The notes below the pieces were generated by a model. The model was not told the DNA's origin. It searched no databases and saw nothing but the letters and a program-made list of their open reading frames with translations. DNA of 60,654 nt, counting the filler, from Dugesia japonica (lineage: Eukaryota): the NCBI GenBank assembly GCA_001938525.1. It is 6 parts of 6 records of this genome, joined end to end, with 100 filler letters (N's around TTAATTAATTAA, not from the genome) between each part and the next. Parts side by side here need not be neighbours in the genome. Positions count along the whole stretch, not along the records: positions 8,710 to 17,188 come from MQRL01627831.1; 5 more parts are not named here. One strand, given 5' to 3'. The position numbers were made by a program, and so were the translations under genes. Every line of letters starts with the position of its first letter. Positions within the stretch are counted from its first letter, which is position 1. Below, piece by piece: positions 9,581 to 17,288 of the stretch.

Positions 9581-10011
9581 ATCTTGTTGATCCTGCCAGT
9601 AGCTTATCTCAAAGATTAAACCATGCATGTCTAATGACACAGATTTATAAACTGAAACCGCGGATGGCTCATTATAACAGCCATGATTTAAGAGATATAA
9701 TCTATTTTATAATCTTATCTATAACTGTGGTAATTATAGAGCTAATAATTTAATGAATGCCGTAAACAACAAAGCGGCTGATCAAAACTAACATGTCGCA
9801 AGACAAAACTTTGATGGCTCTGGATAACTTTACTGATCGTACGATATTACGTTGACGACGAATCTCTTGAAATGGCTGATCTATCAACTTTCGATGGTAA
9901 GATCAAAGCTTACTATAGTTGTAACGGGTAACAGGAAATCATTGTTCAATTTCTGAGAGGGAGCCTGAGAAACGGCTACCACATCCACAGAAGGCAGCAG
10001 CGCGAAAATTA
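9581..10011 (+). pseudogene. 18S rRNA 5' fragment (about 430 nt), mutated
   Basis: GTTGATCCTGCCAGTAG, AAAGATTAAACCATGCATGTC, CTATCAACTTTCGATGGTA, GAGCCTGAGAAACGGCTACCACATCC, GAAGGCAGCAG. Confidence 0.97.
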
Positions 10012-10031
10012 GCCTGGAAACGATTTATTGC

Positions 10032-10378
10032 CAACACGTAAATCATAAAATATTATTCAAACCCCTAACTTATTTTCTTAGGTTAGTTAGAGTTTAAATA
10101 TATGGCTAAACCACATCCAACAAATCCAAATATTCATCAGGTAATATCTTTATATCAGGTAATATCTTTATGAGGTAGGCTCTGAATAATCATTACGTCT
10201 ATGCGAGATTCAGACTTAATCTCGGATGCTAGCTTCGTCCCAAGGACCTTTCGATCAAGCACATTTACCAGTGATCCGAATCTGCGGTTTTTCTCGTACT
10301 GAGCAGAATTATCATTGTAATGACACTTTATATAGAAACGTAAAACTAACGACGGTCTAAACCCAGCTGACGTTCCCC
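10032..10378 (-). pseudogene. 28S rRNA 3'-domain fragment including the sarcin-ricin loop region (copy A)
   Basis: The - strand reads GGGAACGTCAGCTGGGTTTAGACCGTCGT...CTGCTCAGTACGAGAAAAACCGCAG...CGAAGCTAGCATC...TAAGTCTGAATC. The lower boundary is inferred from similarity to copy B. Confidence 0.9.
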
Positions 10379-10429
10379 ATGTTGCTGCTGTTATTTATAA
10401 TTATTATTTGAATTTATTCACAGTTTTTT

Positions 10430-10950
10430 TCTTTGCCATGTATTTCTATTTTTTCGTTGGTATTATTGCCATTTAGCCAGATGGATTTCATTTTCTTTAT
10501 ACTGATTTTTATTTATTGGCAACATTCATTCATTCAGCCTCTTCAGGTTATCATTCAGTCCTTTCACTGTTTTATCCACGAGGTATAGGTCATCTGTATA
10601 GGCACCATATGTTAGATTGTATGGCATTTTAACTGTTTTCAATTTCAATCCTTCCTTCAAGTTTCCTGATTCTATGGCATGGTCAAACACTTTTTTGAAT
10701 AGCGTTGGTCCCATAAAGCATCCTTATCTCACTCTTCTTTCCATCATGAATCTTTCATCACCAATTCTTTGAATTATTTGATTATTCTTGCCATATTTGT
10801 TGGTATTTCTATCTTTTTTAGAATTTGCTACATGATTTCTCTCGGTATACTGTTGAATGCCTTCTCAAGGTCTATGAATGCGCATATAGTGAATCTTTTG
10901 TTTCTAAAACCGAATTGACTATCATCTAGTTCTTTTTCACTATAGTCTTG
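10430..10950 (-). mobile_element. Non-LTR retrotransposon reverse transcriptase fragment
   Basis: ELDDSQFGFR; AFIDLEKAFNSIPRE; RGVR*GCFMGPTLF; GAYTDDL. Confidence 0.88.
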
Positions 10951-11269
10951 CAGGGGTTTATTCGACGTCGTTCTTAAGAATAGTTTGGCGGCCGTAGTAT
11001 CCTGTTAGGGACCAATAACCTCTCGTCATTTAGCAATTACCTTGAAATAAAGTGATTGTAGTCTCCAAGCGCCCATTTTTAAGCTTGGCAGTAAATTGCT
11101 TCCCCACTAATCTTAATCCTAACACTTTGTGAAGGTGATAAGATTAATTCAGCATTCGTCTATGGTTGACCAGTTTCCATAGTACAGGATAAACGTCAGG
11201 CAGGTGCCCCCTGGCTTATGAGTAGTAGCTTTTCGCAGGTTTCTGATCAATAAATTATTCGATTTAAGC

Positions 11270-11560
11270 GGCTTGTAGCCGGTTTATTTCAATTACAATG
11301 ATTAATCACAAGCTAACCATCCATAAAAGATGGCTTGTGGCTAGATTCTTTCAATCACTATTGTTAATAACCAGCTAACCGCTTATCCGAATGATTATAT
11401 CTAATTTGCTGTTATTACTATAATTAGATTTATGAGTTTCTTAGAGTGATAGGCTTAGGGCCAGGTTCTTTCGATTGGAATGATCAATCACGAGCTAACC
11501 ATTTATGAAGAACGGCTTGTGATTCTTTCGATTGCTACGGTCAATCACTGGCTAAACAAT
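11270..11560. repeat. Degenerate subrepeats (core TTCTTTCRATT...ATCACxAGCTAACC, four copies), possibly rDNA spacer
   Basis: Copies at about 11282, 11344, 11465 and 11521, next to 28S 3' pieces. Confidence 0.55.
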
Positions 11561-11615
11561 CATTTGGGCACTCATTAATCATATTGAATCCGCTTATAAG
11601 GCGACTTATTTTAGG

Positions 11616-11770
11616 TCACACGTAAACCATTTAAATGGCTCGAACATCCAATCCACTTGCATAGAAAGGTCTGAGTTTAAATATATGGCTAGGCCATACT
11701 CATTGACTTGCGTCGATGAGTAATATAATTGAGCGATTTTATCATGATATCTAGGTGAGATTCAGACTAG
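11616..11770 (-). pseudogene. Second, divergent 28S 3' fragment (copy B)
   Basis: Shares collinear anchors ACACGTAAA, GAGTTTAAATATATGGCTA and GAGATTCAGACT with 10034-10216. Confidence 0.65.
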
Positions 11771-12216
11771 ATAATATGGTCTCTGTAATTTTAGGAATTG
11801 TTGAAAACTTTCAAAGCCAAGTTTTGACGAATACTGACGATTACGAAAAAAGGCTGTTATTTTAAAGAAAATATGCCTAAAGATTTTATGCCAGAATCAG
11901 TCAAGAGATCTAATAATGCTTGCATTTCTCAAGATATGCCTGAATATAAAACGTCTATAAAGATTGATGATTTTGAAGAAAATATATCAAAATATTTTAT
12001 TTCAGAATCTGTCGAGATAAATAATAACTATTGACAATAACTACAATAAAAATGATCTTTAGAAAGACGATCAGAAAGATATGGACTTGGAAAAATGATT
12101 GATTTATCCAAAGGATTGATAAGGACTTCGTGCAAATGATACTCATGCTGGAATCAAATCCAAAAGAAATGTAAGAAAACCTAAGTTTTTATGAAAATAA
12201 AATTTCGATAAAAAAT

Positions 12217-12278
12217 CCACAAGCAGGGATAGTACCTATACAGGGAAACCCCATTGGATTTCAAACTCAACGCCTTAA
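12217..12278 (-). pseudogene. tRNA-Ser(UGA) relic, 5'-truncated
   Basis: The - strand reads TTAAGGCGTTGAGTTTGAAATCCAATGGGGTTTCCCTGTATAGGTACTATCCCTGCTTGTG, matching the metazoan tRNA-Ser-UGA pattern with a long variable arm. The anticodon is at 12261-12263 and the T-loop is mutated. Confidence 0.85.
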
Positions 12279-12424
12279 AATAAAAAATTTTATTATCTAT
12301 TTTATTATCTCAGTCTCTTGGATGTTGTTTCATGCTTCTGTCGGTTACCTTGGAATAAAATAGCTGTCAAGCGCCCATTTTTAAGTTTGATAACCCAATA
12401 AAACGTCATCGGCATATTTTAATT

Positions 12425-12468
12425 GATCCAAAACTGCTGTTCCTTTCGTACTGTGCAGAGTTATTATT
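12425..12468 (-). pseudogene. 28S sarcin-ricin loop fragment (second divergent copy)
   Basis: The - strand reads CTGCACAGTACGAAAGGAACAGCAG. Confidence 0.75.
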
Positions 12469-12576
12469 ATCTTTGATCATTATGGTAGTCTGATCGTTGA
12501 CTTTGTCGTTCTTGTCCCAAATCTGTAACAGATCGTTAACCTTCTCTGGCCTAGTGCTTTTTTTTCGGTGATCACT

Positions 12577-12717
12577 GTAGGTTTCGGCTGGACTCCAGTA
12601 CAGTTCAGGTTAATAACCATTTCAGCCGGACCACATGGAGGTTGTCCACCTAGCACCCACAACAATGAATTACGAAGCAAAACGCCACGCTTTCCAAAAG
12701 TCATAGTTACTCCGGCC
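12577..12717 (-). ncRNA. HDV-like self-cleaving ribozyme (probably decayed) at a 28S/R2- or R5-type 5' junction
   Basis: P1 GGCCGG (12717-12712) pairs with CCGGCU (12629-12624) with a G1-U wobble; P3 ACC/GGU; L3 UCCAUGU. P2 and J4/2 are ambiguous. Confidence 0.65.
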
Positions 12718-12757
12718 GTTAAACAGCGCTTGTTGGAATTTCTTCACGTTGACATTC
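12699..12757 (-). pseudogene. 28S rRNA fragment immediately upstream of the R2/R5 target site
   Basis: The - strand reads GAATGTCAACGTGAAGAAATTCCAACAAGCGCTGTTTAACGGCCGGAGTAACTATGACT, then loses similarity to 28S. Confidence 0.9.
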
Positions 12758-14112
12758 CTAACAGTAGAGAGAGGCTGTTGGGAAGTGTAGAACTGAGCGT
12801 TAAATAGAAGAATATAATGAGAATTACTTAAATCATAACAGTTAAAAAGAAACGACCACAATTTATTGGTGGGATAAATGCAACGAAATGTTTCAGAATA
12901 AAACTGACAGAAGTTAATAACATTGAAACTAGAAGTTTGGGAAGAAGCCACTCAAACGATGATAGAAAGAATTATGCATTATAGGTCTTTAAAGAAACAA
13001 TTAACAAAGATCTAAATAATCTAATTTTGAAATTCGCTGAAATATTAATGGCGTCTAAAATTTGATATAGGACACAAAACAAGTTGAACATGAAATAAAA
13101 GTATTGAGAGATCCCATTTTTAAAGGTATCATCATATATCTAGATGGTATACGATGATATACAGTATATTATCCATAGTGAGTGGAAGGACGGTCAAAGA
13201 TCATCATGAAATTTTGAAAGAAATTTTTAACAGAATCAGAGAATCAGGATTGAGGATAAATTCAGAAAAATGTAAATTTTACCAAAAACAACTGGTCTTT
13301 TTGGGGCATACAATAAGTCCGAAAGGAATTAAAACAAACGAAAGTACGATTTGGGAAATAAAAAATGCCGAAGAATCAAAATGCTCATCTAAACTCTGGT
13401 CTTTTCTTGGCTTAACGAATTATTACAGGTGTTTTAACAGGGATTATTCTAGAATTGCAAAACCTTTCTATGAAGCTATTTCAGGATATGAAAAAACCTT
13501 GATGTGAACAGAAACATGCAGAACAAGTTTTGAAAACTTAAAAGACAAGTTATGTAATGCATCAATTCTAGATTACCCTAGAGAAAATAGAATGTTTATC
13601 CTAGATACTGATGCGAGTTTTGTAGCTATCGGTGCTATGCTGAGCTAAAGAATGGAAGATGGTGAAGAGATATGATTACAACTTTACTTAAAGGAAATTG
13701 TAGCGAGAAAAACTGAGATGCATTACTTCCGAGAATTGAGTTCAGTATAAACTCTTCTGTTCAAGAGTCGACAAAACTTTCACCATTTGAGATTATATTT
13801 AGAAAGCGTATAAATTTGCATGCAAAAACGGAAACCATTTCTGAAAACAAAACAGTTAATCTAGAGACAGTTTGACAAAATTTAAATAAAGCGGCTAATA
13901 AAATGGCGAATTTTGAAAATGANNNNNNNNNNNNNNNNNNNNNNNNNNNNGAGAAGTGGGTGTTAGTTTGTGTAGAACCACACCAAAGAAAGAAAAGTGA
14001 TTTCCAATATAAAGGACCATATCAAATAATGAAGTTCATATCAGTTCGGCAAGTAGAAATCAAATTTTCTCATGGCTCAAATTACAGAAGAAAGAAATGG
14101 AAAGCATTTTGA
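12758..14112 (+). mobile_element. Ty3/Gypsy pol relic: protease C-half, RT, RNase H and integrase C-terminus, followed by a PPT
   Basis: LLGSVELSV...PQFIGGIN; IIYLDG; KCKF...VFLGHTIS; SFLGLTNYYR; FILDTDAS; YKGPYQI; purine tract GAGGAAGAGGGTGAAG at 14111-14126. Confidence 0.9.
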
Positions 14113-14126
14113 GGAAGAGGGTGAAG

Positions 14127-15050
14127 TTGCAATGATTAATATTTTATTTAAATATTATAAGAAATTGTTGTAATTTTGATGTTTATAAATATATTGTATT
14201 TATATGAAGTCTGATTTTGAAAGTAATGTAACTGAGAGTTAAAATCTTGATGATGTTATTTAATAGCTATAATTGGGAAAAGTTAGTTTTGCTGGTCAGC
14301 AATTTAAACTTCATTTTATTTAATATGTACAAAAGAGATCATAAATTAGATCCTTTCACAATGCGAATATTTGTGAAATAGAAAGAGAAATGACAGGTGA
14401 AGATCATAGCATTATAATAGGAAGTTAAAAAGTTGAAGGTTTAATTACAGTTCATTGCCGGTAAATATTACAATATAAAGAATAGAGAATTAATCTTAGT
14501 GTATAACAAAAGATGGTAAGCGGACGTAATAAATAATAATGTGAACAATAAGTCGGCTCTGTTTAGTCGTAGCGCATGTTATGAAGACAGTTTAAAACAT
14601 AAACTGAAGATAAAGAAGTCATAACAGTTGGAAGAAGAGATGGAGATCATGTTATGAAAATAAATTTTCATAAATATCCCGATTTATTATTGCAAAACAA
14701 TGTATGCAATAAATCAAACATCAAAATCTCAAGACAAACTACCACAAAAGTTTGCTAAGCTCAGGGGAAAGAGCAAGAGCAATGGAAAATCGCAGATGCT
14801 TGAAATTTCCATGGTATATGTTTCTAGAAAGAGGTAGGAAGGAAGAATGAAAATTAAAATAGCCACGAATGTGAAAAGTCAGCTCTATTATAAAAGAAAA
14901 TGTATGGTAAGCCAACAAACGTAATTTGTCAATAATTTATTAAACTGAAACATTTACAAATATTTATATTAAAAATCACCTGATATAGGATTTTAAAGTG
15001 CCATTCTTGCATACTGATAGTTATAATATAATCATAATATAATCAATTAT
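14127..15050 (+). mobile_element. Probable 3' LTR of the Gypsy relic
   Basis: Non-coding sequence directly after the PPT, with a TATA-like TATAAAAG at about 14889. The right boundary is uncertain. Confidence 0.4.
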
Positions 15051-16510: not shown

Positions 16511-16999
16511 TCAATTTTCTTTCAATTTCGATCGAATTCTCTGCATTAATTTCGGTAGACTACTATCGAGATGAGAATCAACGCAACTTCTGGCACACCG
16601 ACTAACTTCTTTCTCAGCAATTTGTATTTCACTTTCAGTTGGAGATGAAGACATTTTATCTTTCTGTTTATCAGCACAATCCAGCATGCATCGTTGCAAT
16701 CGATTCTAGTAAACAAACAAATATTTCATTGATTTATTTAACTTAAAACGAAATATGATTGCCTGGAATGTATTTATCTCATTTTCAATAAAAGATTGAG
16801 CTTTTGCAACAGGTTGACTGCATTTTGACAAACAATTTTGGACGTCTTCACTGGTCATATCGAAATTCTCGCAACACTTTATCGAACACCGATATTGATC
16901 AGCTTGCATCTTTCTGAGAAAGTCTTTATCAATAGATTCGATTGAGTTTTGAAATGCTTTTTGATAAATTTGTTGCAAGTCATTTAGTTCCCGATTCAT
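16511..16999 (-). CDS. FAM136A: FAM136A homologue, 143 aa; exons 16999-16763 and 16705-16511; 57-bp GC-AG intron
   Basis: LRKMQ...CSIKCC...VQNCLSKCSQP...FQ|NRLQRCMLDCADK...RCARSCVDSH with twin CX3C motifs. The spliced frame is open end to end. Confidence 0.92.
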
Positions 17000-17288
17000 C
17001 TAAACAAAAAATATATCTGATAAAAATCAAAGTTTATTTACATAAATAAACTGAAAATTTAATTTTTCAATTTTGATAACCGAAGCTCGATTAAATCTTT
17101 AACATTACATTTTAAATAATACAAATAAATAATATTTATAAAAAAGAATGATTGATAATTATATCAGATAATAGATAAATAATTTTTTNNNNNNNNNNNN
17201 NNNNNNNNNNNNNNNNNNNNNNNNNNNNNNNNTTAATTAATTAANNNNNNNNNNNNNNNNNNNNNNNNNNNNNNNNNNNNNNNNNNNN

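What the first reader, a model, noticed from the sequence alone, without database searches (positions are those of the whole stretch)
12577..12757. HDV-like ribozyme at an R5/R2-type 28S junction, with P1 matched to a variant 28S
Seen: 28S similarity ends after TAACTATGACT. Downstream, ACC-UCCAUGU-GGU-CCGGCU forms P3/L3/P1', which pairs with 28S-derived GGCCGG. Canonical 28S has GGCGGG, so the pairing matches this variant. Known: many R2 elements self-cleave at this G, 28 nt upstream of the R2 site, and planarian R5 (NeSL-related) inserts 8 bp upstream of that site in type II rDNA. Inference: this is the 5' end of an R5- or R2-like element whose ribozyme co-evolved with a divergent rDNA type. 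P2 is ambiguous: UAGGU/ACCUA after a canonical CGAA, or a decayed GGACA/UGUAC. P1.1 reads GA rather than GG.
Basis: partly seen in the sequence, partly recalled or inferred. Interest (0 to 1): 0.75.

Follow-up and report, generated by a model that had tools for sequence, protein, structure and literature searches.

The report
Decayed retrotransposon ribozyme at 28S junction
This is the worn-down front end of a jumping gene that once inserted into a flatworm's ribosomal RNA gene, still carrying most of the self-cutting RNA such elements are known to use, so it is a real but largely expected relic.

Summary
On the minus strand a 59-nt 28S piece (12757-12699) stops 9 nt short of the R2 site. An HDV-like core follows: 6-bp P1 from G12717 (the -28 G), P3 ACC/GGU, L3 UCCAUGU. 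It is not chance: the only hit in the window, and 0 of 20,000 anchored shuffles. The 'GA' at P1.1 is a two-allele site: about half the depth in 3 of 3 DNA runs reads GG, the canonical form. P2 and J4/2 stay unresolved; four registers exist, none canonical. The core sits at single-copy depth, outside an rDNA array, with no R2 or R5 reading frame. The nearest reverse transcriptase, 1.5 kb on, is APE/RTE-type. P1 does need C at -25; depth arithmetic hints that a high-copy rDNA-type sequence carries it, but published S. mediterranea 28S does not. Cleavage at -28 is already predicted for planarian R2. Verdict: a real relic of an R2-type 5' junction. R5 identity, co-evolution and activity are not shown.

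The parts
12699..12757 (-). 28S rRNA piece ending at -10 relative to the R2 site; differs from canonical at -25 (C, 12714)
   Evidence: rDNA-level depth and loose end at 12757
12712..12717 (-). P1 5' strand GGCCGG; predicted cut 5' of G12717
12651..12711 (-). J1/2: rest of the 28S piece, then non-28S leader; two allelic differences at 12686 and 12684 in run X4
12643..12652 (-). P2 5' strand candidates (UAGGU 12652-12648; GGUGGACA 12650-12643; GGACA 12647-12643)
12630..12642 (-). P3 (ACC/GGU) closing L3 UCCAUGU
12624..12629 (-). P1 3' strand CCGGCU; G12627 pairs with C12714
12622..12623 (-). P1.1 3' side: GA in the assembly, GG in a second allele at 47%, 60% and 49% of depth
   Evidence: row 12622
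12608..12618 (-). small hairpin GGUU/AACC, possible P4
12567..12607 (-). J4/2 and P2 3' strand candidates: UGUAC 12602-12598, GUCCA 12593-12589, CGAA 12586-12583 plus ACCUA 12582-12578, UGAUCACC 12574-12567; none established
12314..12492 (-). member of a multi-copy repeat: diverged 28S sarcin-ricin-loop piece (12467-12422) plus an RT-like 45-nt motif also found at 11087-11037; sister copies leave the window beyond 12492
11602..11775 (-). diverged 28S 3'-end piece, collinear with the two 28S pieces above
   Evidence: 117 identities, 0 of 500 shuffles; likeness to the S. mediterranea template, by eye
10450..11090 (-). broken reverse transcriptase of APE/RTE type, not R2 or NeSL type
12762..14150 (+). 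broken Gypsy-like pol, high copy, abutting the upstream end of the 28S piece

Best explanation
A relic of the 5' junction of a 28S-specific non-LTR retrotransposon (R2 or R5 type) in a dugesiid planarian. In the living element, RNA polymerase I read through from 28S; GGCCGG paired with CCGGCU, P3/L3, P1.1 and P2 formed the HDV double pseudoknot, and the RNA was cut 5' of G12717, leaving a short 28S leader that anneals to the target during insertion (mechanism from PMC3774820; inferred here, not shown). This copy lies outside an rDNA array among broken rDNA pieces, has lost its reading frame by deletion, and is decaying: one of two alleles has lost the second G of P1.1, and P2/J4-2 is damaged in every register. 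Shown: the core, its position, the allele, single-copy depth, no frame. Inferred: element type, past cleavage. My split for the element: R2 0.45, R5 0.35, other 0.2. For C(-25): taken from a high-copy rDNA variant 0.55, element-borne 0.3, later mutation 0.15. Chance that the GG allele still cuts in vitro: about 0.25.
For: Core at the -28 G beyond chance. -28 is the commonest R2 cleavage site and is listed for planarian R2; P1 is typically 6-7 bp; a third of R2 ribozymes have a mismatch in the first 5 pairs of P2 (PMC3774820). R2 5' junctions with uniform 2-7 bp 28S deletions are known. P1 pair probability 0.99 for transcripts ending at 12620-12593. S. mediterranea holds R2 and 28S-targeting NeSL families.
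Against: No Rfam HDV-clan hit. No canonical P2 plus J4/2: each option turns up in 1.5-59% of shuffles. No zinc-finger, R2-type RT or restriction-like nuclease trace in six frames of 10399-12575; the 66-codon open stretch after the core found no relative. No sister copy for covariation (contigs show presence, not absence; 908 pieces and 38 rows were not displayed). P1 probability falls to 0.63 when the transcript runs to 12560.
Confidence: 0.75

Rival explanations
1. The ribozyme headed an APE-type (RTE-like) element or a chimeric non-autonomous RNA that picked up 28S pieces, and cut at the same G.
For: The nearest non-LTR RT is APE/RTE-type; a multi-copy repeat 70 nt downstream joins a 28S piece to an RT-like motif; RTE elements have HDV-like ribozymes (PMC3774820 discussion).
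Against: Sister copies of that repeat leave the window beyond 12492 and do not carry the core (pieces 3 and 11); the RT is 1.5 kb away behind a 28S 3'-end piece; the -28 G is the R2 hallmark.
Confidence: 0.1
2. A short, still working non-autonomous element or ribozyme: the GG allele cleaves, using P2 GGUGGACA/UGAUCACC or UAGGU/ACCUA, and ends near the A-run at 12565-12558.
For: GG allele completes P1.1; an 8-bp P2 with one mismatch directly abuts P3.
Against: Single-copy depth; that P2 appears in 457 of 5000 shuffles, 102 with a C-N-A before it; J4/2 spacing is off; no polymerase I promoter context.
Confidence: 0.1
3. A decayed 28S pseudogene piece in which the HDV-like core is chance.
For: The locus is a string of collinear 28S pieces; 12625-12570 resembles downstream 28S weakly (13, 7, 273 and 72 of 1000 shuffles reach the score for four references).
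Against: 0 of 20,000 anchored shuffles; GG allele at P1.1; the 28S profile does not match 12698-12470.
Confidence: 0.05

Closest known systems
R2 5' HDV-like ribozymes cutting at -28 in 28S (Eickbush et al. 2013, PMC3774820), including the predicted one of S. mediterranea R2
   Same: P1 5' strand is the 28S -28 GC run; 6-bp P1; P3/L3 core; short 28S deletion at the junction
   Different: C at -25 paired with G; 9-nt deletion (2-7 nt in the paper's examples); single broken copy; no frame. The planarian R2 sequence itself could not be read (supplement unreadable), so identity with it is untested.
Horseshoe crab R2 ribozyme (PMC3774820)
   Same: P1 mismatch at -25 with canonical 28S; a G-to-C change at -25 made in vitro gave 9% cleavage
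   Different: Here the C at -25 is natural
R5 of dugesiid planarians, NeSL clade (Burke et al. 2003; only the title seen in reference lists, content recalled)
   Same: Host group; junction within 1 nt of the recalled R5 site
   Different: No R5 frame here; no R5 ribozyme turned up in searches
LIN9_SM, LIN24_SM, LIN26_SM (PMC4640811 S6)
   Same: 28S-targeting NeSL-clade elements of S. mediterranea
   Different: Other sites and opposite orientation to the rRNA; their junctions do not resemble this one

Membership tests
HDV-like ribozyme | 6-7 bp P1 starting with a G pair at the cut site | tested here: met
   G12717.U12624 plus 5 Watson-Crick pairs
HDV-like ribozyme | 3-bp P3 closing a 7-nt L3 with U-C-C and the conserved G | tested here: met
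   ACC/UCCAUGU/GGU
HDV-like ribozyme | P1.1 (CC of L3 with GG after P1) | tested here: met
   Met in the second allele (GG); one pair only in the assembly allele
HDV-like ribozyme | P2 of 5 bp or more contiguous with P3 | tested here: inconclusive
   Four registers, none beyond chance
HDV-like ribozyme | Catalytic C in J4/2 at the right distance from P2 | tested here: inconclusive
   CGAA fits only a P2 set 5 nt off P3 (77 of 5000 shuffles)
HDV-like ribozyme | Match to an Rfam HDV-clan model | tested here: not met
   No hit at E<=10
HDV-like ribozyme | Self-cleavage | not testable with these tools
   Needs a bench assay; run X8 laid 3 reads, none on the core
R2 retrotransposon | 5' junction at or just upstream of the R2 site in 28S, same orientation | tested here: met
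   Ends 9 nt short
R2 retrotransposon | Single frame with zinc finger, Myb, RT and restriction-like nuclease | tested here: not met
   None found; nearby RT is APE-type
R2 retrotransposon | 3' junction rejoining 28S at the R2 site | tested here: not met
   28S resumes only at the sarcin-ricin loop, about 780-1160 nt further on in intact genes
R5 retrotransposon | Insertion 8 bp upstream of the R2 site (recalled) | tested here: inconclusive
   Junction is 1 nt short of that site
R5 retrotransposon | Sits in type II 28S (recalled) | tested here: inconclusive
   rDNA type of the piece not assigned; it differs from the 28S at 7 of 59 places, by eye
R5 retrotransposon | NeSL-clade RT and restriction-like nuclease | tested here: not met

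The most novel reading that the evidence does not exclude
The junction comes from an R5 (NeSL-clade) element with its own -28 HDV-like ribozyme, whose P1 partner is matched to a diverged high-copy rDNA target reading C at -25. That would be a first ribozyme for R5 in the papers searched, and a way for an element to be processed only from one rDNA type.
Probability: 0.2. Interest if true: 0.55.

Novelty: new member of a known kind. Interest (0 to 1): 0.33.

Why it matters
As it stands it adds one decayed example of a described mechanism, with a natural version of the -25 G-to-C change that rescued the horseshoe crab ribozyme in vitro. If a high-copy planarian rDNA variant really reads C at -25, it matters twice: that base pairs at the foot of helix 69 of the large subunit (own knowledge; L043 shows the compensating change), and P1 pairing could restrict an element to one rDNA type, a simple testable idea about how R elements spare the active rDNA.

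Tried and rejected
No whole genome is held, so no genome-wide copy search. Rfam scans: rRNA pieces only. Whole-region folding is not above shuffles (z -0.6 to -1.5), as expected for a pseudoknot. 28S origin of the core region: rejected by profile, weak and reference-dependent pairwise. The 19-nt repeat at 11691/10108 looked like a target-site duplication; it is 28S 3' sequence. Viral contigs: 0 hits for the 28S motif; 11 hits for the core motif, 0 of 11 with GGCCGG within 120 nt upstream. PDB searches of the RT pieces gave only chance hits; word-based protein searches found nothing. No RNA holder listed, which is no evidence on expression. Earlier findings: nothing. Planarian 28S types at -25 could not be read from supplements: cells cut at 400 letters, no sequence, unreadable file. 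Ruminski et al. 2011 is not held.

Full report
Setting. The window is AT-rich eukaryotic DNA with no long frame near the finding. It holds an 18S piece (9583-10094, plus) and a 28S 3' piece (10319-10176, minus). The 28S 3' piece and its continuation to about 10020 closely resemble the S. mediterranea template in the supplement of PMC6884822 (compared by eye), so the host is taken to be a dugesiid-type planarian; the species is not determined. No whole genome is held.

The observation. On the minus strand, a profile from 16 of the 117 fetched 28S loci (those long enough to reach the sarcin-ricin loop) matches 12763-12699 and nothing in 12698-12470. Laid contigs show the host 28S leaving the window at 12757 and a high-copy Gypsy-like repeat starting at 12762 (Pfam RT and RNase H hits). 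So the 28S piece is 59 nt, cut off upstream, and not in an rDNA array. It ends at -10 relative to the R2 site. G12717 is the -28 G. Sixty-nine bases after P1 come ACC, UCCAUGU, GGU, CCGGCU, GA.

Chance. A descriptor for P1, P3, L3 and the following G hits once in both strands of the window, at 12717. With the 28S piece fixed and 250 downstream bases shuffled, 0 of 20,000 give a P1 at that G and 1 of 20,000 anywhere in the piece; 2 of 30 whole-window shuffles give a hit. The descriptor was written after seeing the site and had no positive control; 0 of 117 28S loci hit it at the motif. Rfam reports no HDV-clan match at E<=10.

Independent support. In one search the base at 12622, the A of the P1.1 'GA', has a second state: 3.34 of 7.04, 12.8 of 21.3 and 5.2 of 10.6 depth in runs X1, X2 and X4 (three studies) read G on the minus strand. 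The summed depth is single-copy, so this is best read as two alleles of one locus, one with canonical GG. Only three variant places were displayed in 12493-12698 (12622, 12684, 12686); 38 of 78 rows were not displayed. One of the DNA runs may be the source of the assembly.

The weak half. In 5000 shuffles of the next 69 nt they appear 923, 2930, 244 and 457 times; with a J4/2-like motif 77, 143 and 102 times for the three so tested. None is established, and the catalytic C cannot be named. A helix between the P1 3' strand and 12590-12585 lowers P1 probability from 0.99 to 0.63 in the longest transcript.

The element. Depth over 12488-12679 is 4-24 (X1), 13-72 (X2) and 6-52 (X4), against 15,000-155,000 on the 28S piece; the contigs displayed over the core differ at 0-2 places. 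No family of intact copies at 80% or more is listed, though contigs cannot prove absence. Six-frame Pfam scans of 10399-12575 give only two sub-threshold RT hits near 11090-10450. That RT found 25 relatives; of 15 scanned, 14 have an RT domain and 3 also an APE nuclease; none showed another nuclease family. The sequences read as RTE-like (clade name from own knowledge). It is therefore not the R2 or R5 frame. Between lie a diverged sarcin-ricin-loop piece in a multi-copy repeat and a 28S 3'-end piece, in rRNA order. The simplest history is an inserted 28S copy that lost most of the element and some 700 nt or more of 28S by deletion (inference).

The variant base. GGCGGG is in 115 of 117 loci and in the S. 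mediterranea 28S of PMC4640811 S6. With it P1 has a G-G mismatch (-6.4 against -9.9 kcal/mol). For a high-copy variant: in X4 the high-copy contigs cover all 24 places of 12704-12727, and in every two-contig scenario a contig with at least 5% share, or the dominant one, spans 12714 at 12 or more letters from its aligned end, yet no run tallies a G>C change. This rests on my reading of how the tool counts. Co-evolution is not shown.

Known systems. PMC3774820 (abstract; sections 10, 12, 14, 15, 16, 17; supplements unreadable) gives -28 as the commonest site, lists planaria among the predicted cases, and reports the horseshoe crab mismatch at -25. PMC5035012 (passages, supplement 1) and PMC4640811 (passages, S6 parts 1-2 of 3) list planarian R2 and 28S-targeting NeSL families. 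PMC3636483 (passages) says target deletions go with NeSL elements and most R2-clade elements, so a 9-nt gap fits R2 and a 1-nt gap fits R5. PMC7650587, PMC3849761 and PMC6884822 were seen as passages, PMC10991399 as a supplement search only. The R5 site and its type II preference are recalled; I saw only the title of Burke et al. 2003. The unread supplement of PMC3774820 holds the planarian R2 ribozyme and may show whether this is the same family.

Verdict. It works, or worked, like an R2 -28 ribozyme (0.75). Membership in R2 or R5 is not met for lack of a frame. A new, decayed member of a known kind; interest 0.33.

Noticed in passing
window 12314-12492 (-): Multi-copy repeat joining a diverged 28S sarcin-ricin-loop piece to a short RT-like motif; depth tens of times single copy. 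May be a chimeric rRNA/RTE family.
   Followed up: partly
window 9583-11775: Cluster of broken rDNA: 18S 5' piece on plus, head to head with a 28S 3' piece on minus, and a second more diverged 28S 3' piece.
   Followed up: partly
window 11270-11563: Degenerate repeats of about 60 nt right after the 28S 3'-end piece; possibly intergenic-spacer sub-repeats.
   Followed up: no
window 16520-17000 (-): Apparent two-exon host gene of about 140 codons with paired cysteines, resembling FAM136A (name recalled, from the translation).
   Followed up: no
L037 141-730: A 28S locus interrupted by about 550 nt near the R2 site, rejoining at the conserved sequence; probably an intron or short insert; no ribozyme core hit at the motif.
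   Followed up: no
L043 and L014: Two 28S loci with C at -25; L043 has the compensating G on the other strand of the helix, L014 does not.
   Followed up: partly
window 12680-12755: Depth arithmetic in X1 suggests one more low-depth contig that carries the 28S base at 12723 and aligns at least 8 nt past the junction: possibly a second junction copy; not displayed as a piece.
   Followed up: no
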